Below, piece after piece: positions 244 to 13,540 of a stretch of DNA of 64,000 nucleotides (the stretch's first letter is position 1; each line of letters starts with the position of its first letter). The position numbers and the translations under genes are program-made. The DNA comes from Caldimicrobium sp. (lineage in GTDB: Bacteria; Desulfobacterota; Thermodesulfobacteria; Thermodesulfobacteriales; Thermodesulfobacteriaceae). Below the pieces are notes generated by a model. It was not told the DNA's origin, did no database searches, and saw only the letters and a list, made by a program, of their open reading frames with translations. The stretch spans positions 488 through 64,487 of the forward strand of contig JANXCE010000008.1 of assembly GCA_025059715.1 (NCBI GenBank), given 5' to 3'.

Positions 244-273
244 TATGGAAGATCGATTCAAAAGGAGGGTATT

Positions 274-3200
274 ATGCTTTATGTAGGGCTTGATGTTGGT
301 TCAGGAACTGCAAAAGTGGCGGTATTAAATGAAGAAAGAGATCTACTTTTTTCTAACTATATCAAGACCCATGGTCAGCCCATAGAGACAGCGGAAAGAC
401 TCCTCTCCGAGGTAGAGGGTTTCTTTGGAGACAGGCTTTCCGGGATCACTTGCACAGGCACTGCAGGGAAGACCCTTTCTAAGATTTTAGGTTGTGCCTT
501 TGTAAATGAAGTCATGGCTCATGCCAAGGCAGCTACTTTTTATCATCCAGAGGTAAAGACTATAATTGATATTGGTGGCGAGGATTCCAAATTAATATTC
601 ATAACCCATGAAAGAGGCGCTCCAGAGATTGAAGAATTTGCCTTGAACACCCTTTGTGCAGCAGGCACAGGGTCTTTTCTCGAGCAACAGGCTGTAAGAC
701 TTGGTTACACCATAGAGGAGTTTTCGCAAAAGGCGTTACTTGCTAAGAATGTTCCTCGTATTGCGGGAAGATGCACTGTATTTGCTAAATCGGATATGAT
801 TCATTTGCAACAAGCAGCAGTGCCTGATGAGGAGATTATTGCTGGGCTATGCTATGCAATAATTAGGAATCTTAAAAGTAATTTAGCCAAGGGCAAACCT
901 ATTTTACCACCCTTGGTTTTTCAAGGAGGGGTGGCAGCAAATTTAGGGGTAAGGCGTGCTATAAAAGATGTGTTCAATTTGAAAGAGGAAGAGCTGATTA
1001 TTCCTGAACATTATAGAATAATGGGAGCGATTGGTGCGGCTTTATATGGTCTTGAAGGTAAGGCCACCTCTTCCTACAAAGGCTCAGAGCTACTAAGGGC
1101 CTATCTCAAAGAAAGAGCCTATGATCCCCCGAGATACCCCGTGTTATATCCCTACGAGTCTGCAGAATTATCTAGGAAAATCAGGGAAAAACTCCAGAAA
1201 TTTATTACGCGAAGCTATCCTCCAGAAAGGGAGATTAATGTCTATCTGGGGGTGGATGTAGGTTCGGTGAGCACAAAGCTGGTTGCTATTGATGAGGATG
1301 GCAATCTCCTTGCTAAGGTCTACATGTTCCATCATGGTAAACCTTTAGAAAGTATTAAAAGGGGTTTAAGGGAATTAGGGGAGAAACTTCCTGCTAAGGT
1401 AAAGGTGAAGGGAGTGGGAACCACTGGTTCAGGAAGATATTTGGTGGGAGATTTTATTGGAGCGGATGTAATTAGAAATGAAATCACTGCTCAGGCTTAT
1501 GGAGCATTATATCTTGATCCAGAGGTAGACACTATTTTTGAGATTGGTGGTCAAGATTCAAAATACATCTTTCTTGATAATGGGAGTATTGCGGATTTCA
1601 CTATGAACAAGGCCTGTGCTGCAGGAACTGGCTCTTTTTTACAAGAGCAAGGTGTCAAACTGGGAGTTCCCATAGAGAAATTTGGGGAAATAGCACTAAG
1701 GAGTAAGGCACCACTAAAGATGGGCGAAAGATGCACGGTGTTTATGCAATCGGATTTACTCCATTATCAACAACAGGGGCTTCCCAAGGAAGATCTCATT
1801 GCTGGGCTTTGCTATTCTATAGTTTATAATTATCTAAATAAGGTAGTTGAAGGAAGAAAGATTGGAAAAAAAATCTTTTTTCAAGGAGCAGTTGCGTTCA
1901 ATGAAGGCGTAGTTTCCGCCTTTGAAAAGGTTTTAGGGAAACCAATTATCGTTCCTCCAAACAATGAGGTCACTGGGGCAATAGGGGTTGCGCTATTAGC
2001 CCGAGCGGAAACCAAAGGAGAATCAAGATTTAAGGGGTTTGATTTAGCTAAGACCAGTTATCTTATCACAACCTTTGAATGTAAGCACTGTCCTAATCAG
2101 TGTGAAATTCAAAAGGTGGTCTTAGATAAAACCCAAAGTTATTTTTACGGCGGAAGATGTGATCGATATGAACTTGATCACCGAAAACCTGATGAGAGAC
2201 TTCCCAATCCAACCTTAGAGAGAGAGGCTAAGCTTCTTTCTTATTTGAGGCCTCTACCAGAGGGTGTAGATTTTGCCACAGATAATCTCATAGGAGTTCC
2301 GCGATGCCTTCAGTTTTTTGAATATCTGCCCCTCTTTGCTACCTTTTTTCAAGAATTAGGTTATCATGTATTCCTTTCTCCACCAACTTCTAAGGAGATC
2401 ATAAAGAAAGGATGTGAACTTGCTCCGGCGGAGCCCTGTTTTCCTGTAAAGATTGCTTTAGGTCAGGTAAAAACCTTGGTAGATTTGGGAGTTAAGAGAA
2501 TCTTTCTTCCTCAAATTACCGATTTACCTCCTGAGGTGCCAGAATTAAAGCTTGGCAAGATATGCCCTTGGGTGCAGAGCCTTCCTTGGATTGCTCCCGC
2601 AAGTATTCCCTTTGGAGAAAGGGGAGTTGAGGTTATCTCTCCAGTATTTCATCTTGGTAGACCCGGTTTTGTGCTAAATGAGGAGATTAAGAGATTGGCC
2701 AAGATGCTTGATGAACCTGTGGAGAAGGTAAAGAAGGCCTGGAGGGTTGCAGAAGAGGCCCAAAGGGAATTTCATCTTTGGCTCAAAAGGCGAGGCAAGG
2801 AGTTGTTAGAGGAATTTAAAGATGAGCTCGTCCTCGTGATTGTGGGAAGACCCTATAACGCCTTTGACACTGGGGCAAACTTAGCTTTACATCATAAAAT
2901 AAGGAAACTAGGACTTCTGGGCTTACCTGTAGACATGCTCCCTTTAGAGGAAGTTAAAGAATTGGAAACTTTGGAAGGGATGTATTGGGAATATGGTCAG
3001 AGGTTTCTTTTAGCTGCCCATTATCTTAGAAAAACTTCCAACTTATTTCCCATTTACTTTACTAACTTTTCCTGTGGACCCGATTCCTTTATTGCTCACT
3101 TCTTTGGAGAGTTTTTGGCAGGAAAACCCTTTATAGAGATAGAAGTAGATGAGCATAGTGCGGAAGCAGGTGTGGTTACCAGATTAGAAGCCTTTGTAGA

Positions 3201-4500
3201 TAGTCTGAAGGGTAAAAAAAGGCCCTTTGAACTTAGGAGAACCTTTAACATTCAAAGAATTCATCCTACGGAGGGAAGGACCATTTACATACCCTATATG
3301 GCGGATCATGCTCGAGCTCTGGCCGCAGCCTTTAGAGCCTGTGGAGTAAGAGCGGAGGTTTTACCAGAGCCAGATGAGGAGGCACTAGAGTTGGGTAGAA
3401 AGTGGACCTCGGGTAAAGAGTGCTATCCCACTATTCTTACCACCGGAGATTTAGTGAAATTGATTAAGAGACCGGATTTTGTTCCTGAAAGAAGCGTTTT
3501 CTTTATGCCTGATGGCTCAGGGCCCTGTAGATTTGGACAATATAATCGCCTCCATCGAAAAATTTTGAGAGACTTAGGAATTACTAATCTACCTGTTTAT
3601 TCTCCTCAGCAGGATGTGGAATTCTATGATGATTTAGGGATTGCGGGAAGAGAATTTACAAAGATCGCTTGGCGAGGAGTTGTAGCGGTAGATATTTTGG
3701 ATAAGCTTTTAAGAAGGATAAGACCCTATGCCATTGACAAAGAGGAGGTAGAAAGGCTTTACTGGGAATCCTTGGAAAAAATAGAGAAGACCATTGAAAA
3801 TAAAGGAAATTTGGCAGAAGTTCTTATAGAAATCAAAAACAAATTTGCCAGCCTTCCCTTGATAGAAGAGGAGCTCCCTGTTGTGGGAGTGGTGGGAGAA
3901 ATATATGTGAGATCTAATCGCTTTGCTAACGAGAATCTCTATCGCAATTTGGAGGATATGGGGCTTGAAGTGCTTTTACCTCCAATAGGAGAATGGATCT
4001 ACTTTATAAACTATATCTCTAAGAAATGGGCTAAAAGAATGGGGGCTATAGGCACTACTCTAAAATTCATTATTGAAAACCAGTTTCAACACAAGGAAGA
4101 AGATCATTTCGTTCAACTAGTGAGCGATCTCTTAGATGATAGAGCAAAAGAGCCCACAATCGAAGAGTTAGAAAGGCTTGCTAAGAGATTTGTGCATCCC
4201 GATTACGAAGGTGGTGAAGTGATGCTTTCTATTGGTAAGGCTGTGGAATATCTCCATAAAGGAGTTGCGGGAATAGTTAATGTTATACCCTTTGCCTGTA
4301 TGCCCGGAAATGTGCAAGCAGCTATTTTAAAGAGATTAAGAGAAGAGGTTGGTGAAAGAATTCCCCTATTAACAGTTCCCTGTGATGGGCAAAAGTCCAT
4401 GGGAGTAAGAATGCGTTTGGAGGCCTTTGTAGAACAAGTTAAGGAATTTCATAGGGCTAAAAGAAAAGAAAATATGCAAAAAAAAGCGGTAAATTTTTAA
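274..4500 (+). CDS. Fused acyl-CoA dehydratase activase protein (two BadF/BcrA-type ATPase domains + DUF2229/dehydratase-like domains); PlsA/Ger-like
   Basis: Two GxDVGS...K ATPase starts, two IGG(E/Q)DSK motifs, two CAAGTGSFL and RCTVF cluster motifs, CKHCPNQC linker, PCFPVK, FSCGPD, ECYP and PFACMP motifs; 1408 aa with RBS. Confidence 0.9.
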   Translation: MLYVGLDVGSGTAKVAVLNEERDLLFSNYIKTHGQPIETAERLLSEVEGFFGDRLSGITCTGTAGKTLSKILGCAFVNEVMAHAKAATFYHPEVKTIIDIGGEDSKLIFITHERGAPEIEEFALNTLCAAGTGSFLEQQAVRLGYTIEEFSQKALLAKNVPRIAGRCTVFAKSDMIHLQQAAVPDEEIIAGLCYAIIRNLKSNLAKGKPILPPLVFQGGVAANLGVRRAIKDVFNLKEEELIIPEHYRIMGAIGAALYGLEGKATSSYKGSELLRAYLKERAYDPPRYPVLYPYESAELSRKIREKLQKFITRSYPPEREINVYLGVDVGSVSTKLVAIDEDGNLLAKVYMFHHGKPLESIKRGLRELGEKLPAKVKVKGVGTTGSGRYLVGDFIGADVIRNEITAQAYGALYLDPEVDTIFEIGGQDSKYIFLDNGSIADFTMNKACAAGTGSFLQEQGVKLGVPIEKFGEIALRSKAPLKMGERCTVFMQSDLLHYQQQGLPKEDLIAGLCYSIVYNYLNKVVEGRKIGKKIFFQGAVAFNEGVVSAFEKVLGKPIIVPPNNEVTGAIGVALLARAETKGESRFKGFDLAKTSYLITTFECKHCPNQCEIQKVVLDKTQSYFYGGRCDRYELDHRKPDERLPNPTLEREAKLLSYLRPLPEGVDFATDNLIGVPRCLQFFEYLPLFATFFQELGYHVFLSPPTSKEIIKKGCELAPAEPCFPVKIALGQVKTLVDLGVKRIFLPQITDLPPEVPELKLGKICPWVQSLPWIAPASIPFGERGVEVISPVFHLGRPGFVLNEEIKRLAKMLDEPVEKVKKAWRVAEEAQREFHLWLKRRGKELLEEFKDELVLVIVGRPYNAFDTGANLALHHKIRKLGLLGLPVDMLPLEEVKELETLEGMYWEYGQRFLLAAHYLRKTSNLFPIYFTNFSCGPDSFIAHFFGEFLAGKPFIEIEVDEHSAEAGVVTRLEAFVDSLKGKKRPFELRRTFNIQRIHPTEGRTIYIPYMADHARALAAAFRACGVRAEVLPEPDEEALELGRKWTSGKECYPTILTTGDLVKLIKRPDFVPERSVFFMPDGSGPCRFGQYNRLHRKILRDLGITNLPVYSPQQDVEFYDDLGIAGREFTKIAWRGVVAVDILDKLLRRIRPYAIDKEEVERLYWESLEKIEKTIENKGNLAEVLIEIKNKFASLPLIEEELPVVGVVGEIYVRSNRFANENLYRNLEDMGLEVLLPPIGEWIYFINYISKKWAKRMGAIGTTLKFIIENQFQHKEEDHFVQLVSDLLDDRAKEPTIEELERLAKRFVHPDYEGGEVMLSIGKAVEYLHKGVAGIVNVIPFACMPGNVQAAILKRLREEVGERIPLLTVPCDGQKSMGVRMRLEAFVEQVKEFHRAKRKENMQKKAVNF

Positions 4501-4586: not shown

Positions 4587-4856
4587 TTGGAAGAAAAAAA
4601 GGAAGGTTCTTTTAAATTTTTATTAAGAGTTTTAGGAGAGAGTATAACCATAGGTATTGCGGTTATGGGATCAATTTTAGCTGGAGCTATCACAGGGTGG
4701 TTTGTAGAGGAAAAACTTCTCAAAGGGAAAACCTCTCCATGGATAACTACCCTATTTATAATTCTTGGAGCTATAGGAGGAATCAAAAATCTTATATATT
4801 ATAGCAAAAGGAGAATGAGAGATATAGAAGGTCCTCGCGATGAGAGGAGAAACTGA
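4587..4856 (+). CDS. AtpZ/AtpI-family small membrane protein (ATP synthase gene 1)
   Basis: Two hydrophobic helices with G-rich pattern (IGIAVMGSILAGAITGWFVEE...PWITTLFIILGAIGG); first gene of atp cluster. Confidence 0.8.
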   Translation: MEEKKEGSFKFLLRVLGESITIGIAVMGSILAGAITGWFVEEKLLKGKTSPWITTLFIILGAIGGIKNLIYYSKRRMRDIEGPRDERRN

Positions 4857-5259
4857 GAGAATTTTTAGAGAACTCAGTATTCTTATGCTGCTGAGTATGG
4901 TAACAGGTTCATTGGTTATCTTAATGTTCTTTCAAGCCTTAATACCTCTTTTATCCTTCTTTGCAGGTGCCCTTTTGGCTTATATAAATTTTTCTACTTT
5001 ACGCAAAGAGGGACAAGAGTTGCTTTTCAAGGTTTATAAAAATGTTATGGCATGTATGGAGAGGCCCTACCAAAGGGAGAGAACTCTCTTTCTAATAAAG
5101 GTTTACTTGAGACTTCTTGCCCTGGGTATTATTTTCTATTTTCTTATAGCCAAATTGTCCTTTCATCCAGTTTTTCTACTTCTCGGTTTTAGCTTGGTGT
5201 ATCTGCAAATTTTTGTAGTGATGTTTAGGTTTTGGCTTAAGAAAAGAGAAAGTTTTTAA
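4840..5259 (+). CDS. atpI: ATP synthase subunit I-like membrane protein
   Basis: Four TM segments, GALLAYINF motif, position directly before atpB. Confidence 0.75.
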   Translation: MRGETERIFRELSILMLLSMVTGSLVILMFFQALIPLLSFFAGALLAYINFSTLRKEGQELLFKVYKNVMACMERPYQRERTLFLIKVYLRLLALGIIFYFLIAKLSFHPVFLLLGFSLVYLQIFVVMFRFWLKKRESF

Positions 5260-5275
5260 GGGGAGGTAAGGAACA

Positions 5276-6022
5276 ATGGAGCATCCTATCCTCTTTTTAT
5301 GTTTGCTCTTAGAGAAATTGGGTCTTCCCTCGGGTTGGCACTACTATGAGGAGGCGGAAAAATATGGAATCCTTGCCCAACTTTTGGCTCCCCATATGGT
5401 TCACAGCTATTTAGTGGTGAGCTTAATCATTGTGCTATCCCTTTTAGCCCGGAGTAAGAGGGATTTTCTACCTGGAGCCTTTCAAAATGTCTGGGAATTT
5501 TTAGTAGAGAGTTTATACAATTTTACGAAAAGCAATCTCCCTCAGGATAAACTTGACCAACTTATGCCTACAGTATTTCCGCTAATTACCACCTATGCCC
5601 TTTATATCCTCTTTTCCAATCTTTTGGGACTTATTCCAGGATTTATGTCTCCTACAGCTAATATTAATGTAACCATGGGCTTAACCCTTATAACCATTGT
5701 GTATTATCATTACTTGGGTATTAAATACAAAGGTTTGGCCTACTTTAAGGACTTTTTAGGTCCTATTCCCTGGCTCATACCTCTTATGCTTCCTGCGGAG
5801 ATCTTTAGCCATGTAGGAAGGATTCTCTCTCTCTCTTTTCGGTTGTTTGGAAATCTGCTCTCTAAGGAGATCCTTCTGGGAATACTTACCATGCTTGGAG
5901 GAAAATTCTTTGCCCCATTACCAGTTATGATACTTGGAGTTGCGGTAGGCTTTATACAGACTTTTATTTTTGTTCTTCTGAGTCTGGTATACTTTGCGGG
6001 TGCAGTAGAGGAACATCATTAG
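5276..6022 (+). CDS. atpB: F0F1 ATP synthase subunit a
   Basis: NLLGLIPG, PTANIN, LSLSFRLFGN (essential Arg), IQTFIFVLLSLVY. Confidence 0.97.
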   Translation: MEHPILFLCLLLEKLGLPSGWHYYEEAEKYGILAQLLAPHMVHSYLVVSLIIVLSLLARSKRDFLPGAFQNVWEFLVESLYNFTKSNLPQDKLDQLMPTVFPLITTYALYILFSNLLGLIPGFMSPTANINVTMGLTLITIVYYHYLGIKYKGLAYFKDFLGPIPWLIPLMLPAEIFSHVGRILSLSFRLFGNLLSKEILLGILTMLGGKFFAPLPVMILGVAVGFIQTFIFVLLSLVYFAGAVEEHH

Positions 6023-6040
6023 AATTTTATCAAGGGGTAA

Positions 6041-6472
<432 letters not shown>

Positions 6473-8094: not shown

Positions 8095-8700
8095 ATGAGT
8101 AAGGTTAGTTTATCTGAAAAAATAAAGGTAACAACTGAACCTTGGCTTATGCCTGTAGTGAGGGTGCTTATACAATGTAGAGTTCATCCCAACGTGGTGA
8201 CCCTACTTTGTTTTTTAGGGTTTTTGGTTAGTGCTTTTTTTATAGCTCAAGGAAAATTTTTCTTGGCTGGGTTACTGCTCATCTTCTTTGCACCACTTGA
8301 TGCTATTGATGGTCTGCTTGCTCGTGCTTCAAACAGAGTCTCTTCTTTTGGTGCCTTTTTGGACTCCACCATGGATCGCTATGGAGAAATCGTCATATTT
8401 TTAAGTCTTACCTATTATTTCATACTAAAAGGTTCAATCTCTGGAATAATTCTTTGTTTTTTAGGGATTACCGGCTCTCTCATGGTGAGTTACACTCGAG
8501 CCCGAGCGGAAGGATTGGGTTTTGAATGTAAAATTGGCTTACTTACTCGATTAGAACGAATTACTCTTTTAATAATTTCCCTTATTCTGGATACAATTTT
8601 TATCTTTTTGATATTGCTCTCCCTTTTCACCCACTTAACAGCCCTTCAAAGAATATGGCACGTCTATAGGACTTCAAAGGTATATTCTGTTAATTCCTGA
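8095..8700 (+). CDS. CDP-alcohol phosphatidyltransferase (PIP/AIP-synthase-like)
   Basis: DAIDGLLAR...GAFLDSTMDRYGE signature; SYTRARAEGLG; RLER. Confidence 0.9.
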   Translation: MSKVSLSEKIKVTTEPWLMPVVRVLIQCRVHPNVVTLLCFLGFLVSAFFIAQGKFFLAGLLLIFFAPLDAIDGLLARASNRVSSFGAFLDSTMDRYGEIVIFLSLTYYFILKGSISGIILCFLGITGSLMVSYTRARAEGLGFECKIGLLTRLERITLLIISLILDTIFIFLILLSLFTHLTALQRIWHVYRTSKVYSVNS

Positions 8701-8701
8701 T

Positions 8702-8935
8702 ATGTGTCTTGCATACCCCTATCAAATCGTAGAAATTATTAATCCCTATGTTGCTAAGGCTTCCATTGATGGAGTTTCTAAGGAAATATATATATCCCTT
8801 TTAGCAGAAGAGGTTAAACCAGGAGATTGGGTTTTAGTGCATGTGGGATTTGCTATACAAAAAATAAGAGAGGAAGAGGCTATAGAAGCCCTAAATTTTT
8901 ATCGTCAACTTCTAAGTGATGAAACAGGTTTTTAA
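8702..8935 (+). CDS. hypC: Hydrogenase maturation chaperone HypC
   Basis: MCLAYP N-terminus, GDWVLVHVGFAI. Confidence 0.95.
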   Translation: MCLAYPYQIVEIINPYVAKASIDGVSKEIYISLLAEEVKPGDWVLVHVGFAIQKIREEEAIEALNFYRQLLSDETGF

Positions 8936-10025
8936 CGATATCAGGGATTCTGGGCTTTTAAAAGGCCTAATCAAACACCTTAAGACTAAACTAAAGTCAA
9001 TGGATAGACCCCTAAGGATAATGGAGTTTTGTGGTGGCCATACCCATAGTCTTTTAAGATTTGGACTCGATGAACTCCTTAGCCCTGAGGTTGAGTTTCT
9101 TCATGGTCCGGGCTGTCCTGTTTGTGTGCTTAGCGAAAGTTTATTAGAGTATGCTTTGGGGCTGGCAAAGTCTGAAAAGGTCCTCTTTGTGACCTATGGC
9201 GACCTTCTAAGAGTGCCCAATTCAAAGGGGCAATCCCTCTTGAGTTTAAGAGCGCAAGGTTATGAGATTAAAATCCTCTCCCATGCTATGGAGGCTTTTA
9301 CTTTAGCCAAGATTAATCCTCAAAAGACAATTCTCTTCTTTGCCATAGGCTTTGAAACTACAGCTCCAGCTACTGCCTTCCTCATACAAAAAGCCCATCA
9401 AGAGAACCTTAGAAATCTTCTCGTTGTCTCCAATCATCTTTTAAGCACCGCCGTGCTCGAATTTCTTCTATCCAAAGAAACACCTCCCTGGATGGATGGA
9501 ATAATCGGACCAGGTCATGTTTCCACAGTAATTGGAAGTGATAGTTTCCAAGGTATAGCTGAAAGATTTAAACTCCCAATTGTAATTGCAGGCTTTGAGC
9601 CCCTGGATCTGGTCGTAGCAGTGCATCAATTGGTTGATCTTTGCTTAAAAGGAAAGAAAGGAGTTTATAATGCTTACCAGAGGGCAGTTACACCTGAGGG
9701 TAATCTAAAAGCTAAAGCTCTCTTAGAAGAGGTATTTGTAGTGAGGGAGATATTTCCTTGGAGAGGATTAGGAGATGTCCCCAACAGTGCCTTGGCTATT
9801 AGTGAGAGATATAGTGAATATGATGGAGAAAGGATCTACCCTAAACCTACAATTATTGATACTCCTAAGGGCTGCATTTGCAACCTAATCCTTCAGGCAA
9901 AAGCTAAGCCCATAGATTGTTCTCTCTTTGGTAGGGTTTGCACTCCCTCCAAACCAATAGGGCCCTGTATGGTCTCTTCTGAAGGGGCTTGCTTAGCCTA
10001 TCACAAATTCAAAAGTATTTCTTAA
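8919..10025 (+). CDS. hypD: Hydrogenase maturation protein HypD
   Basis: MEFCGGHTH, GPGCPVC, GFETT, PGHVS, C-terminal PIGPCMVSSEGAC. Confidence 0.95.
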   Translation: MKQVFNDIRDSGLLKGLIKHLKTKLKSMDRPLRIMEFCGGHTHSLLRFGLDELLSPEVEFLHGPGCPVCVLSESLLEYALGLAKSEKVLFVTYGDLLRVPNSKGQSLLSLRAQGYEIKILSHAMEAFTLAKINPQKTILFFAIGFETTAPATAFLIQKAHQENLRNLLVVSNHLLSTAVLEFLLSKETPPWMDGIIGPGHVSTVIGSDSFQGIAERFKLPIVIAGFEPLDLVVAVHQLVDLCLKGKKGVYNAYQRAVTPEGNLKAKALLEEVFVVREIFPWRGLGDVPNSALAISERYSEYDGERIYPKPTIIDTPKGCICNLILQAKAKPIDCSLFGRVCTPSKPIGPCMVSSEGACLAYHKFKSIS

Positions 10026-10717
10026 TTAATATCACTGCTGTTAACTTCTTTTTCTTTAATCGGAATATATTTGGATCCTGAGATCATTGAAGAAATTACT
10101 CCTAGTGCATCCTTTATCTCGTTCCATATCGCCATGTAGAGATGAACTAAAATAAAGATACAAAAAACCCACAACATTAAGTAATGGATGAGGCGAGCCA
10201 GTTGGGGTGTTCCAAAGAGAGTAGTGCCGAAGGTTTTGAAAAAGGGATTTTCAGGATAAAGCATATATAGACCAGTGATAGCCATGATTATGGAAATTAT
10301 GAAGACTATTGTGTAAGTTATACCTGCAGTTTGAGTATGTCCCAACACTTTTGCCTTCTTGGAAGATAAATAGAAATAATACTTAATTTCACTTTTTAAA
10401 AGTTCAAAATTTGCTTTCCTAAGGGGTAGAAAGGATGTGGCTTTTTCCTGAAGATTACCAAAAAAGAGTAGATAGATGCGAAGTATCAGAGTGGAGATAA
10501 AGAAAAATCCCGCTATAAAATGAAGATGTCTCATAGTGGTCATGAGATAAGAAGGGCTAAACTCAGACCAAGAGGTAGTTGTAGGTGGGTTATTAATGTA
10601 GAGTCCCGTTATGATAAGAGTGATAGTTGCCAAGGCAAACAACCAGTGAAAGATCCGTAAGGACCAACTCCAAAAAGGAATTTTCTGATAGCCCTTTTCG
10701 TTTATGTTCATATCCAA
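10022..10717 (-). CDS. Ni/Fe-hydrogenase b-type cytochrome subunit (HyaC/HydC-like)
   Basis: RIFHW, RHLHF, RLIHY, VHLY heme-ligand His pattern; four TM helices; follows large subunit. Confidence 0.9.
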   Translation of the reverse strand: MDMNINEKGYQKIPFWSWSLRIFHWLFALATITLIITGLYINNPPTTTSWSEFSPSYLMTTMRHLHFIAGFFFISTLILRIYLLFFGNLQEKATSFLPLRKANFELLKSEIKYYFYLSSKKAKVLGHTQTAGITYTIVFIISIIMAITGLYMLYPENPFFKTFGTTLFGTPQLARLIHYLMLWVFCIFILVHLYMAIWNEIKDALGVISSMISGSKYIPIKEKEVNSSDIN

Positions 10718-10734
10718 GCCTCCCTATGATCTTT

Positions 10735-12444
10735 CTATAATACTTTCACTCTGGCAATTTCTTTTTTTTCTTTGTCTATGAGATGCACCGCACAGGCAAT
10801 ACAGGGATCAAAGGAGTGAATAGTTCTTAAAACTTCTAGGGGTTTTTCTGGATTCACAACAGGATTGTTAATTAAGGCTTCTTCATAGGGACCTCTTTTA
10901 CCCTTTTCATCCCTTGGGCTCACATTCCAGGTAGAGGGCACTACAGCCTGGTAGTTTTTGATCCTTCCCCCTTCAATAACTACCCAGTGTGAGAGGGTTC
11001 CTCTGGGTGCCTCATGAAAACCAAAGCCCTTTATCTCTCCCTTTGGAAATTGAATGCCCCTTTTGTAAGGATAAATCTCGTAATCTCCCTTAGCTATGTT
11101 TTCCTCTAAGAGGCTTAGATGTTTAAGGGCTAAATCCGCAAGCATTGCCGCTCTTACCGCTCGAGCTAAGTGTCTGCCCATAGTGGAATGCAGATCGTCT
11201 ATAGTAATTTTTTTCTTGGCAAGAGTGGAGACCCTATCTAAGGCATAATTGAGCCATTTAAGTGTTAATTCGTGTTTACTTGCTACGCCCATAAGGACCT
11301 GGGCTAAGGGACCAACTTGCATGGGTTCACCCTTGAAGCGGGGTCCTTTGGACCAGCTATATTTACCCCTTTCATTATAGCCTGTGTATTCTGGAATGGT
11401 GTCTCCCTCCCAAGGATGCTTGGCACCAATATCTTTGTACCAAGAGTGGGTTAGGACCTCGCTTACGTTATCCCTAAAATAGGGGTCTCCAAAATTAGAT
11501 ATAGGCTGATAAGTAGAGAGAGCGCCATTGAAAATAGTTCCGCCTGGTAAGTCAAAGGTAGTTCCCTTTGAATCTAAGGGTAAATCTGGAACTGCGAGAT
11601 AATTGGTTACTCCCTTACCAATATTAAACCAATCCGCATATAGGGCAGATAGCGCTATGGCGTCTGAGAGATAGACCTTTTGGACGAATTCCTTTACCTC
11701 AAGAAGAAGTTCTCTTGCATAGGCTAATCTCTCTAAGTTAAAAGTAGAGGGATTGTCTGGATTGATAGCTAAAGCCACACCACCGACGATGACAGTTTGA
11801 ATGTGGGGAGTTTTAGAGCCAAAGATGGCTACTACTTGATTGGCTTTATATTGATAGTCAAGGGCTGTTAAGTAATGTGCTACTGCCAATAAGTTCACTT
11901 CTGGTGAAAGCTTCATTTGAGGATGCCCCCAATAGCCAGTGGCAAAGGGCCCAAGCTGGCCACTGGCTACGAAATTGGTTAATTTCTCTTTTATACTTCT
12001 GAAATAGCTTTCACTATTTCCCTCCCAATCGGAGAGACTCTGAGCAAGTTGAGCTGTTTTCTTAGGATCTGCCTTAAGAGCTGATACTACATCTACCCAG
12101 TCAAGGGCGGAGAGATGGTAAAAATGCACAATATGGTCATGCAATGCGTGAGCACAGAGAATAATGTTTCTTACATATTGGGCATTTAAGGGGATAGCGA
12201 TATCCAGAGCATTCTCCACCGCTCTTACTGAGGCAATAGCATGAACTGTGGTGCATACACCACAAAATCTTTGGGTAAACATCCAAGCATCCCGGGGATC
12301 TCTATTCTTGAGGATAATTTCAATACCTCTCCACATCTGGGCAGATGCCCAGGCTTCAGTCACTCTTCCTCCATCTACCTCCACATCTATTCTTAGATGT
12401 CCCTCAATTCTGGTGATGGGATCAATGGTGATTTTCTTAGCCAT
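10735..12444 (-). CDS. hybC: [NiFe]-hydrogenase large subunit, HybC-like
   Basis: IDPITRIEGH, RFCGVC, DPCIACAVH plus 15-aa cleavable tail. Confidence 0.93.
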   Translation of the reverse strand: MAKKITIDPITRIEGHLRIDVEVDGGRVTEAWASAQMWRGIEIILKNRDPRDAWMFTQRFCGVCTTVHAIASVRAVENALDIAIPLNAQYVRNIILCAHALHDHIVHFYHLSALDWVDVVSALKADPKKTAQLAQSLSDWEGNSESYFRSIKEKLTNFVASGQLGPFATGYWGHPQMKLSPEVNLLAVAHYLTALDYQYKANQVVAIFGSKTPHIQTVIVGGVALAINPDNPSTFNLERLAYARELLLEVKEFVQKVYLSDAIALSALYADWFNIGKGVTNYLAVPDLPLDSKGTTFDLPGGTIFNGALSTYQPISNFGDPYFRDNVSEVLTHSWYKDIGAKHPWEGDTIPEYTGYNERGKYSWSKGPRFKGEPMQVGPLAQVLMGVASKHELTLKWLNYALDRVSTLAKKKITIDDLHSTMGRHLARAVRAAMLADLALKHLSLLEENIAKGDYEIYPYKRGIQFPKGEIKGFGFHEAPRGTLSHWVVIEGGRIKNYQAVVPSTWNVSPRDEKGKRGPYEEALINNPVVNPEKPLEVLRTIHSFDPCIACAVHLIDKEKKEIARVKVL

Positions 12445-13540
12445 GTTTCTCCTCCTTTGTCTCTGTTGGAGTGTCTACATTGTTTGTTTTAGAAGATTTA
12501 AATACTCTTTTTAATATCCCCGCACCAGCATGAACCGCTATAGCTGCTCCTGCTCCAAGAAGGGCCACTTTTCCAATGTCTTCCGCATCAGCAATGATTC
12601 CCTTGCCACCTGGTATCTTTATATCTGGCAAGTGTTTATAAAAGGGAGTCATTCTATCCCAGAAATTGGGTTCTGTGCATCCGAGACAGGGGTGACCAGC
12701 CCCTATAGGCCAGGCACCTATGTCGCAAAACTTGAGGGTCATACAATTGGCATAGGTTACAGGACCTTTGCATCCCACTTTATAGAGACAATATCCTCGC
12801 CGGTGTCCTTCATCTCCAAAGGACTCTACAAATCTACCTTCATCAAAGTGGGCCCTCCTTTCACAGTGATCGTGAATCTTTCTACCGTAGGCAAATACGG
12901 GCCTTTTGTGTTCATCCAATTCCGGAGGTCTATTAAAGGTAAGGAGATAAGCAACTGTAGCTAAGAGATTATAGGGATTTGGAGGACACCCGGAAATATT
13001 TATTAACTTAGAGGAACCTATTACTTCGGAAACTCCTACTGCCCCAGTGGGATTAGGAGCTGCCGCTTGAATGCCACCAAAGGTAGCACAAGTTCCAAAG
13101 GCTATTACCAATTTTGCCTCGCGTGAAACCTCCTTTAATATCTGCAGAGCAGGTTTACCACCAATTTGACAATAGATTCCTCCATCTTTAGTAGAGACAG
13201 CTCCTTCTACTACTAATATATATTGCCCCTTTGCCTCTTGTATAGCCCTTTTGAGGGCTTCTTCTGCTTGATGCCCTGCTCCAGCCATTAATGTCTCATG
13301 ATAGGCAAGATCTACTATTTCTAAAAGAAAGCGCCCTAAGGGTGGATGAGAGGCTCGTAACAAGGTCTCAGAACAACCAGTGCACTCCATAAAGTGCAAC
13401 CAAATAACCGTAGGTTTTCTTTTTGCTTTTACACTTGCTTCAACTTTTTTTACCAGGGCATGGGGAAGCCCCATAGTAGCTGTTAAAATAGTGCAAATTT
13501 TTAGGAAATCCCGGCGATTTATATTTGTTAAATTCTCCAT
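12437..13540 (-). CDS. hybO: [NiFe]-hydrogenase small subunit, HybO-like, Tat signal and C-terminal anchor
   Basis: RRDFLK Tat motif, ECTGCSE, GCPP, HCERR, CLYKVGCKGP, GHPCLGC, hydrophobic C-terminal helix. Confidence 0.93.
   Translation of the reverse strand: MENLTNINRRDFLKICTILTATMGLPHALVKKVEASVKAKRKPTVIWLHFMECTGCSETLLRASHPPLGRFLLEIVDLAYHETLMAGAGHQAEEALKRAIQEAKGQYILVVEGAVSTKDGGIYCQIGGKPALQILKEVSREAKLVIAFGTCATFGGIQAAAPNPTGAVGVSEVIGSSKLINISGCPPNPYNLLATVAYLLTFNRPPELDEHKRPVFAYGRKIHDHCERRAHFDEGRFVESFGDEGHRRGYCLYKVGCKGPVTYANCMTLKFCDIGAWPIGAGHPCLGCTEPNFWDRMTPFYKHLPDIKIPGGKGIIADAEDIGKVALLGAGAAIAVHAGAGILKRVFKSSKTNNVDTPTETKEEKHG

What the first reader, a model, noticed from the sequence alone, without database searches (positions are those of the whole stretch)
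274..4500. Single-chain PlsA/Ger-type enzyme: candidate bacterial ether-lipid synthase
Seen: a 1408-aa fusion of two activase ATPase domains with DUF2229/dehydratase-like halves and many Fe-S Cys motifs, with its own promoter and no dehydratase subunit genes nearby. Established: this architecture is that of the anaerobic plasmalogen synthase PlsA/PlsR family, and a related glycerol ester reductase (Ger) has been implicated in ether-bond formation in Thermotoga and some sulfate reducers. Thermodesulfobacteriaceae are known to make non-isoprenoid glycerol ethers. Inference: this gene makes ether or vinyl-ether lipids in the host; an automatic pipeline would only call it an activase.
Basis: partly seen in the sequence, partly recalled or inferred. 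Interest (0 to 1): 0.6.

Follow-up and report, generated by a model that had tools for sequence, protein, structure and literature searches.

The report
Single-chain ester-to-ether lipid reductase gene
This hot-spring sulfur bacterium (Caldimicrobium-like) carries one large iron-sulfur enzyme gene of the PlsA/Ger family, which most likely turns ester bonds of its membrane lipids into ether bonds; the family and its presence in this bacterial group are already published, so the finding is sound but ordinary.

Summary
ORF 274-4500 (+) encodes a 1408-aa protein: two BcrAD_BadFG activase ATPase domains, a four-Cys linker, then a duplicated DUF2229/HGD-D-like reductase part with three conserved Cys per half. 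It is the only such gene in a 99.6%-complete genome, and no separate dehydratase or benzoyl-CoA-reductase subunit exists.

It aligns collinearly over its full length with the experimentally verified glycerol ester reductase Ger of Desulfatibacillum alkenivorans (SHJ90043; 31% identity). It aligns likewise with the single-chain PlsA-type protein of Listeria monocytogenes (29%). All 14 family-conserved cysteines are present.

All 28 high-quality Thermodesulfobacteriales genomes searched have it, as one copy apart from one gene split across two contigs. PlsY and PlsC are present; ElbD- or Agps-type ether routes were not found.

Best reading (about 0.7): an ATP-driven Fe-S reductase converting glycerolipid esters into saturated alkyl ethers.

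Caveats:
- It lies in a deep clade separate from both the D. alkenivorans Ger clade and the PlsA clade.
- The T. maritima Ger sequence could not be obtained.
- The two-activase architecture does not separate Ger from PlsA.

Novelty is low. A 'modified plsA' in Thermodesulfobacterium geofontis and Ger homologs in Thermodesulfobacteria are published, and this scan has flagged the family many times on other DNA.

The parts
263..268 (+). Shine-Dalgarno AGGAGG, 5 nt before the ATG
   Evidence: read directly from the sequence
274..4500 (+). ger/plsA-family gene, 1408 aa, single chain
   Evidence: ORF list and translation; Pfam architecture
274..1050 (+). activase ATPase domain 1 (residues 1-259): GLDVGSGTAK, IGGEDSK, cluster Cys C128 and C167
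   Evidence: PF01869/TIGR00241; invariant columns
1243..2001 (+). activase ATPase domain 2 (residues 324-576): GVDVGSVSTK, IGGQDSK, cluster Cys C448 and C487
   Evidence: PF01869 best stretch 325-576; PDB sequence matches to MbdQ, the HadI-type activator, HgdC and DCCP-R
2080..2160 (+). four-Cys linker CxxCxxxC...C (C603, C606, C610, C629), likely an extra Fe-S site
   Evidence: invariant or nearly invariant in 83-98 homologs; shared with Ger, Ger2 and PlsA
2188..3222 (+). reductase half 1 (residues 639-983, DUF2229) with C722, C764, C934
   Evidence: AF2 model pLDDT 89.6; VIA Z 11-14.7 to HadB/C, BzdNO, MbdON and DCCP
3274..4449 (+). reductase half 2 (residues about 1001-1392) with C1050, C1085, C1342; an internal duplicate of half 1
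   Evidence: hhalign half 1 vs half 2: probability 96.8%, E 2e-10, 293 columns, and the three Cys of each half align pairwise

Best explanation
The gene encodes a single-chain glycerol ester reductase of the PlsA/Ger family that makes the non-isoprenoid ether lipids of this Caldimicrobium-like bacterium. Shown: the domain layout, the conserved cysteines, the fold and the homology. Inferred mechanism: (1) The two fused activase domains form a pseudo-dimer holding one [4Fe-4S] cluster on C128/C167/C448/C487. (2) ATP hydrolysis pushes a low-potential electron, probably through the four-Cys linker site, into the Fe-S sites of the duplicated reductase part (three Cys per half), as in 2-hydroxyacyl-CoA dehydratases and class I benzoyl-CoA reductases. 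(3) There the sn-1 acyl ester carbonyl of a finished diacyl phospholipid, made by the PlsY/PlsC route, is reduced and dehydrated to an ether. (4) The sn-2 ester probably follows. The expected product is a saturated alkyl ether (Ger-type) rather than a vinyl ether. This rests on the lipid chemistry reported for Thermodesulfobacterium, not on sequence.
For: Architecture and Cys. Full-length homology to verified Ger SHJ90043 (31% over 1491 columns, 585 bits; accession confirmed) and to the Listeria PlsA-type protein (29%, 520 bits). Fold: AF2 pLDDT 89.6; top PDB matches are only HAD/BCR/DCCP catalytic subunits. Internal duplication with aligned Cys triads. It is the sole family member in a 99.6%-complete genome, and no separate HGD-D gene was found. 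All 28 high-quality genomes of the order have it (f1 22/22, f2 5/5, f3 1/1), as one copy except G090, where the gene is split across two contigs. The tree within the class follows taxonomy, suggesting vertical inheritance. PlsY and PlsC are present. No ElbD-like multidomain gene was found, and the only FAD-oxidase is GlcD-like. In the ML tree the PlsA trio is split from all others, including Ger and this protein, by a branch with 100% support. Literature: Ger converts ester to alkyl ether in E. coli only anaerobically (PMC13159169). D. alkenivorans Ger alone gives mono- and diethers (PMC11150832). T. commune membranes are mostly ether lipids (PMC5552659). T. geofontis carries a 'modified plsA' and makes ethers but not plasmalogens (PMC8788747).
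Against: No member of this protein's own clade among the anchors I could obtain has been tested. It is about as far from verified Ger (31%) as from PlsA (29%), and the D. alkenivorans Ger sits on its own long branch in another part of the tree. Its paralogue Ger2, a family member, gave no ether lipids on expression (PMC11150832). The authors of Ger state that Ger and PlsA cannot yet be told apart from sequence, and that homologs occur in strains without detected ether lipids. No paper in the held library reports Caldimicrobium lipids. No lipid-synthesis gene is directly adjacent.
Confidence: 0.72

Rival explanations
1. It is a PlsA-type plasmalogen synthase: the same chemistry, stopping at the sn-1 vinyl ether.
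For: It has the same architecture, including two intact activase domains, as the Listeria PlsA-type protein. All Cys are shared. Its first ATPase domain keeps the canonical GxDxGS and GGEDSK motifs, as PlsA does, whereas verified Ger has C in place of D7 and T in place of D104. No diagnostic motif is known (PMC13274423).
Against: The PlsA trio is separated from this protein by the longest fully supported internal branch of the tree. Thermodesulfobacterium is reported to make saturated alkyl ethers and no plasmalogens (PMC8788747; PMC5552659).
Confidence: 0.12
2. It is a family member with another, non-lipid substrate: an ATP-driven Fe-S reductase or dehydratase of unknown specificity.
For: The clade is uncharacterised. 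Ger2 was inactive in the same assay. Homologs are very widespread (284 of 401 high-quality genomes in the phylum; 943 clusters at E<=1e-30), including in organisms with no reported ether lipids. Neighbouring genes are housekeeping.
Against: It is the only family member and the only candidate ether-forming enzyme found in a lineage known for ether lipids. No CoA-ester pathway genes lie around it.
Confidence: 0.13
3. It is only an activase, as annotated, that serves a separate dehydratase or benzoyl-CoA reductase.
For: Database names; NCBIfam domain hits.
Against: About 800 further residues with the catalytic-subunit fold are fused to it. The genome holds no separate HGD-D or DUF2229 gene.
Confidence: 0.02

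Closest known systems
Glycerol ester reductase Ger (D. alkenivorans SHJ90043; T. maritima Tmari_0479/AGL49404)
   Same: Single chain with two BcrAD_BadFG domains, DUF2229 and a second reductase half. All 14 conserved Cys. Collinear at 31% identity to SHJ90043. The host lineage makes saturated alkyl ethers.
   Different: It is not in the D. alkenivorans Ger clade. Its first ATPase domain is canonical, whereas in that Ger it is degenerate (D7 to C, D104 to T). The relation to T. maritima Ger is untested because that sequence could not be obtained.
Anaerobic plasmalogen synthase PlsA/PlsR (C. perfringens two-gene form; single-chain form in E. faecalis and Listeria)
   Same: Same domain order, same Cys, 29% identity over the full length to the Listeria protein.
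   Different: Separated by a long, fully supported branch. No TetR-type regulator lies upstream, unlike in Collinsella and E. faecalis (PMC9702350). The expected product is saturated, not vinyl.
'Modified plsA' of Thermodesulfobacterium geofontis OPF15 (PMC8788747)
   Same: Probable orthologue. A protein named T. geofontis (P0028, from a metagenome-assembled genome, not strain OPF15) is 72% identical overall (67% in the reductase part). It is single-copy with the same downstream synteny in a Thermodesulfobacterium-like genome.
   Different: Different genus. Neither protein has been tested experimentally.
2-hydroxyacyl-CoA dehydratases, class I benzoyl-CoA reductases, double-cubane cluster protein with its reductase
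   Same: Activase domains match HgdC, the HadI-type activator, MbdQ/P and DCCP-R at E 1e-22 to 1e-35. Reductase half 1 matches HadB/C, BzdNO, MbdON and DCCP at Z 11-14.7.
   Different: All parts are fused in one chain, with an extra four-Cys linker. Sequence identity to the catalytic subunits is only 10-17%. The substrate is a lipid ester rather than a CoA thioester (inferred).

Membership tests
PlsA/Ger family (anaerobic ester-to-ether lipid reductases) | Two N-terminal BcrAD_BadFG ATPase domains with the cluster-binding Cys pair in each | tested here: met
   PF01869 x2; C128/C167 and C448/C487 invariant
PlsA/Ger family (anaerobic ester-to-ether lipid reductases) | DUF2229 reductase domain followed by a second, HGD-D-like half | tested here: met
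   PF09989 and weak PF06050; duplication shown by hhalign; fold Z 11-14.7 to HAD/BCR/DCCP subunits
PlsA/Ger family (anaerobic ester-to-ether lipid reductases) | Full-length collinear homology to an experimentally verified member | tested here: met
   31% over 1491 columns to SHJ90043.1; 29% to the Listeria PlsA-type protein
PlsA/Ger family (anaerobic ester-to-ether lipid reductases) | Converts glycerolipid ester to ether under anoxic conditions | not testable with these tools
   needs expression and lipidomics
Ger in the narrow sense (alkyl-ether forming) | Falls in the clade of a verified Ger | tested here: not met
   The D. alkenivorans Ger clade lies elsewhere in the tree on a long stem. 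T. maritima Ger was not tested because the sequence was not obtainable.
Ger in the narrow sense (alkyl-ether forming) | 'BBD' architecture, said to be conserved in alkyl-ether producers (PMC13159169, PMC13274423) | tested here: met
   but the Listeria and Collinsella PlsA-type proteins have the same architecture, so the feature does not discriminate
Ger in the narrow sense (alkyl-ether forming) | Host makes saturated alkyl glycerol ethers and no plasmalogens | not testable with these tools
   Reported for Thermodesulfobacterium. No Caldimicrobium lipid data in the held library.
PlsA in the narrow sense (plasmalogen synthase) | Falls in the clade of PlsA from plasmalogen producers | tested here: not met
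   Listeria, Collinsella and Haliovirga form a clade split from all others by a branch of length 1.72 with 100% SH-aLRT
Stand-alone HAD/BCR activase (the database annotation) | ATPase of about 260 aa that serves separately encoded catalytic subunits | tested here: not met
   The ATPase is fused to its own catalytic part, and no other HGD-D or DUF2229 gene is in the genome

The most novel reading that the evidence does not exclude
The Thermodesulfobacteria-type clade is a third functional lineage of the family, beside the D. alkenivorans-type Ger and PlsA. It would be a less diverged enzyme with both ATPase domains intact that, as a single copy, converts both the sn-1 and sn-2 esters efficiently. 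That would account for membranes made mostly of diethers, and would give a thermostable model enzyme for the still unsolved mechanism of ester-to-alkyl-ether reduction.
Probability: 0.3. Interest if true: 0.45.

Novelty: new member of a known kind. Interest (0 to 1): 0.25.

Why it matters
Bacterial non-isoprenoid ether lipids are used as biomarkers and bear on the 'lipid divide' between bacteria and archaea. This gene is the obvious, already published kind of candidate for making them in Thermodesulfobacteria. Three points here are modestly useful:
- The whole order, in the genomes searched, carries one copy and no other known ether route. This fits the recent claim that one Ger can make diethers.
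- This clade is about as far from the verified D. alkenivorans Ger as from PlsA, so its activity should be tested rather than assumed.
- The published rule of thumb 'two activase domains means Ger, one means PlsA' fails for the Listeria and Collinsella proteins.

Tried and rejected
Getting the reference sequences took many calls.
- Two cluster-member runs on 20 cluster representatives gave almost no names.
- Picking Thermotoga-like candidates by amino-acid composition led to a clade of WOR-3, Aminicenantes and Acidobacteriota, not Thermotogota.
- The look-up of encoding contigs gave only metagenome records.
- Naming a species as a search centre is not accepted.
- The search seeded with D. alkenivorans Ger returned only Desulfobacterales-type relatives.
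- As a result, T. maritima Ger (AGL49404), C. perfringens PlsA/PlsR and E. faecalis PlsA were never obtained.

What did work:
- D. alkenivorans Ger and Ger2 were found through the phylum survey and confirmed by accession.
- PlsA-type anchors came from chromosome-sized records filed as plasmids in PLSDB.

Other dead ends:
- A local MAFFT run timed out.
- Jackson et al. 2021 and the supplements of the Ger paper are not held.
- The promoter scan found nothing upstream of the gene.
- Considered and rejected: ElbD/Agps-type ether synthesis, and a stand-alone activase role.
Full report
**Observation.** The window holds an uninterrupted ORF at 274-4500 on the + strand. It encodes 1408 aa, starts at ATG, and has AGGAGG 5 nt upstream. 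Pfam finds two BcrAD_BadFG ATPase domains (about 4-259 and 325-576), DUF2229 (673-889 plus a second stretch) and a weak HGD-D stretch. NCBIfam recognises only the activase domain. Public names for close relatives are 'CoA activase' or 'acyl-CoA dehydratase activase'.

In alignments of 98 and 83 homologs, 14 cysteines are invariant or nearly so:
- C128/C167 and C448/C487, the pair that binds the bridging [4Fe-4S] cluster in HgdC-type activases (established knowledge of that family);
- C603/C606/C610/C629 in the linker;
- C722/C764/C934 and C1050/C1085/C1342 in the C-terminal part.

GC content matches that of the neighbouring genes.

**Organism and copy number.** The best public hit is 87% identical and labelled Caldimicrobium sp. 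A protein named Thermodesulfobacterium geofontis is 67% identical in the reductase part and 72% overall. The assembly is 1.84 Mb and 99.6% complete. It contains no other DUF2229, BcrAD_BadFG or HGD-D gene, so the activase domains have no separate enzyme to serve.

The gene lies 760 nt from a contig end, and no ORF lies upstream of it. The consensus scan finds no sigma-70-like site there. In a complete genome of the same genus and in a Thermodesulfobacterium-like complete genome, the upstream genes are housekeeping genes. The one adjacent to this gene points the other way. The downstream order is conserved: atpI-like, atpB, atpE, comM-like, a CDP-alcohol phosphatidyltransferase, hypD.

**Anatomy of the C-terminal part.** An AlphaFold2 model of residues 600-1408, built on 36 aligned sequences, has mean pLDDT 89.6 and pTM 0.88. 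The only confident Foldseek matches in the PDB are catalytic subunits of class I benzoyl-CoA reductases (BzdNO, MbdON), the double-cubane cluster protein and 2-hydroxyisocaproyl-CoA dehydratase. VIA-align gives Z 11-14.7 over model residues 40-384. Unrelated rows score below 7.

A profile-profile comparison of the two halves gives 96.8% probability and E 2e-10 over 293 columns. The three conserved Cys of one half align with the three of the other. The protein is therefore a one-chain version of a complete HAD/BCR-type system: an activator pseudo-dimer, a four-Cys linker, and a pseudo-heterodimeric catalytic part.

**Relation to characterised enzymes.** The literature defines two functions in this family.
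- PlsA/PlsR makes sn-1 vinyl ethers (plasmalogens) in Clostridium perfringens, with single-gene forms in facultative anaerobes.
- Ger of T. maritima and D. alkenivorans makes saturated 1-O-alkyl ethers in E. coli, only under anoxic conditions. D. alkenivorans Ger alone also gives diethers, while its paralogue Ger2 gave nothing.

I recovered D. alkenivorans Ger and Ger2 from the genome survey. Their identities were confirmed by exact look-up as SHJ90043.1 and SHK01260.1. PlsA-type proteins of Listeria monocytogenes and Collinsella aerofaciens came from chromosome-sized records filed as plasmids.

Pairwise comparisons, each collinear over the full length:

| Pair | Identity | Bits |
|---|---|---|
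| this protein vs Ger | 31% | 585 |
| this protein vs Listeria PlsA-type | 29% | 520 |
| Ger vs Listeria PlsA-type | 26% | 316 |

All 14 Cys are shared by all of these proteins. The window protein departs from residues conserved in at least 85% of the other aligned homologs at only four positions, none of them a Cys or a nucleotide-binding residue. The Listeria and Collinsella proteins also carry two activase domains, and PMC12838417 draws Act1 and Act2 in its figure of the four PlsA enzymes it modelled. The suggested rule that two activation domains mark Ger therefore does not hold.

**Phylogeny.**
- A FastTree of 83 sequences and an IQ-TREE LG+C20 tree of 34 agree within the class: the window protein groups with Caldimicrobium, then Thermodesulfobacterium, then Thermosulfurimonas/Thermodesulfatator, then Thermosulfuriphilus.
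- Next come proteins from Desulfobacterota and other metagenome-assembled genomes at 39-48% identity.
- A Brocadiia (anammox) protein lies in the same large group.
- In the mixture-model tree the three PlsA-type sequences are split from all the rest by a branch of length 1.72 with 100% SH-aLRT support.
- The rest falls into two groups. One holds the D. alkenivorans Ger clade (on a stem of 1.76) and the clade that contains Ger2. The other holds this protein.

The protein is therefore on the non-PlsA side, but not in the clade of the one verified Ger I could obtain. The position of T. maritima Ger is unknown because I could not retrieve it.

**Distribution and pathway context.** Among 401 genomes of the phylum at 99% completeness or better, 284 have a homolog. 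All 28 genomes of the window's order have it (22/22, 5/5 and 1/1 by family). Each has one copy, except one genome where the gene is split across two contigs. Many other families have either an orthologue at 42-48% identity or only distant paralogues. Desulfatibacillum belongs to the second kind.

The window's genome has PlsY and PlsC, so it makes ordinary acyl-ester phosphatidic acid. No ElbD-like multidomain reductase was found, and the single FAD-oxidase gene is GlcD-like rather than Agps-like. T. commune membranes are reported to be mostly ether lipids. T. geofontis is reported to make ethers but not plasmalogens and to carry a 'modified plsA'. The held library has no paper on Caldimicrobium lipids.

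**Conclusion.** The most likely function is ATP-driven, Fe-S-mediated reduction of glycerolipid esters to saturated alkyl ethers, at sn-1 and probably also sn-2. The architecture, fold, homology, copy number and distribution are shown. The substrate, the product and the electron path are inferred. I put about 0.72 on this reading, 0.12 on a plasmalogen-type product, 0.13 on another substrate, and about 0.02 on a stand-alone activase role.

The finding is correct but not new. The family, its role and its presence in Thermodesulfobacteria are published. This scan has already noted the same kind of gene on other DNA.

Noticed in passing
window 8095-8700 (+): A 201-aa CDP-alcohol phosphatidyltransferase lies 3.6 kb downstream. 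Its best matches are archaetidylinositol-phosphate and phosphatidylinositol-phosphate synthases, below their cut-offs (146 vs 180 bits; 124 vs 170 bits). It is 58% identical to the gene at the same position in a Thermodesulfobacterium-like genome. It is a candidate inositol-phospholipid head-group enzyme in conserved synteny with the ether-lipid gene.
   Followed up: partly
window 4587-6472 (+): An atpI-like gene (PF09527), a 139-aa membrane ORF, atpB and atpE sit directly after the gene, apart from any F1 genes. The listed atpE ORF is 140 aa from a TTG start. If that start is used, the N-terminal extension looks like a signal peptide ([23 protein letters not shown]).
   Followed up: no
contig C79 1-120, upstream of the window: The contig starts with CRISPR-like repeat copies (…CAATCCCCTTTGAAGCGGGAC…). 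This probably explains why the assembly breaks 760 nt upstream of the gene.
   Followed up: no
L108 5956-6363 (-), same-genus complete genome: A hemerythrin gene lies divergently upstream of the orthologue. In the window this region is missing because of the contig end.
   Followed up: partly
P0418 (D. alkenivorans Ger) N-terminus: The verified Ger has a degenerate first ATPase domain (LGLCLGAS in place of GxDxGS; GGETF in place of GGEDSK). The window protein and the Listeria PlsA-type protein keep both domains canonical.
   Followed up: partly
PLSDB records NZ_CP030101.1, NZ_LR134399.1, NZ_OY725717.1: Records filed as plasmids are chromosome-sized or chromosome pieces (Listeria 2.9 Mb; Collinsella 0.9 Mb). 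This is useful here, but they appear to be mislabelled.
   Followed up: no
window 10022-13540 (-): A NiFe hydrogenase large and small subunit with a cytochrome b-like membrane subunit lies next to hypD (8916-10025, +).
   Followed up: no
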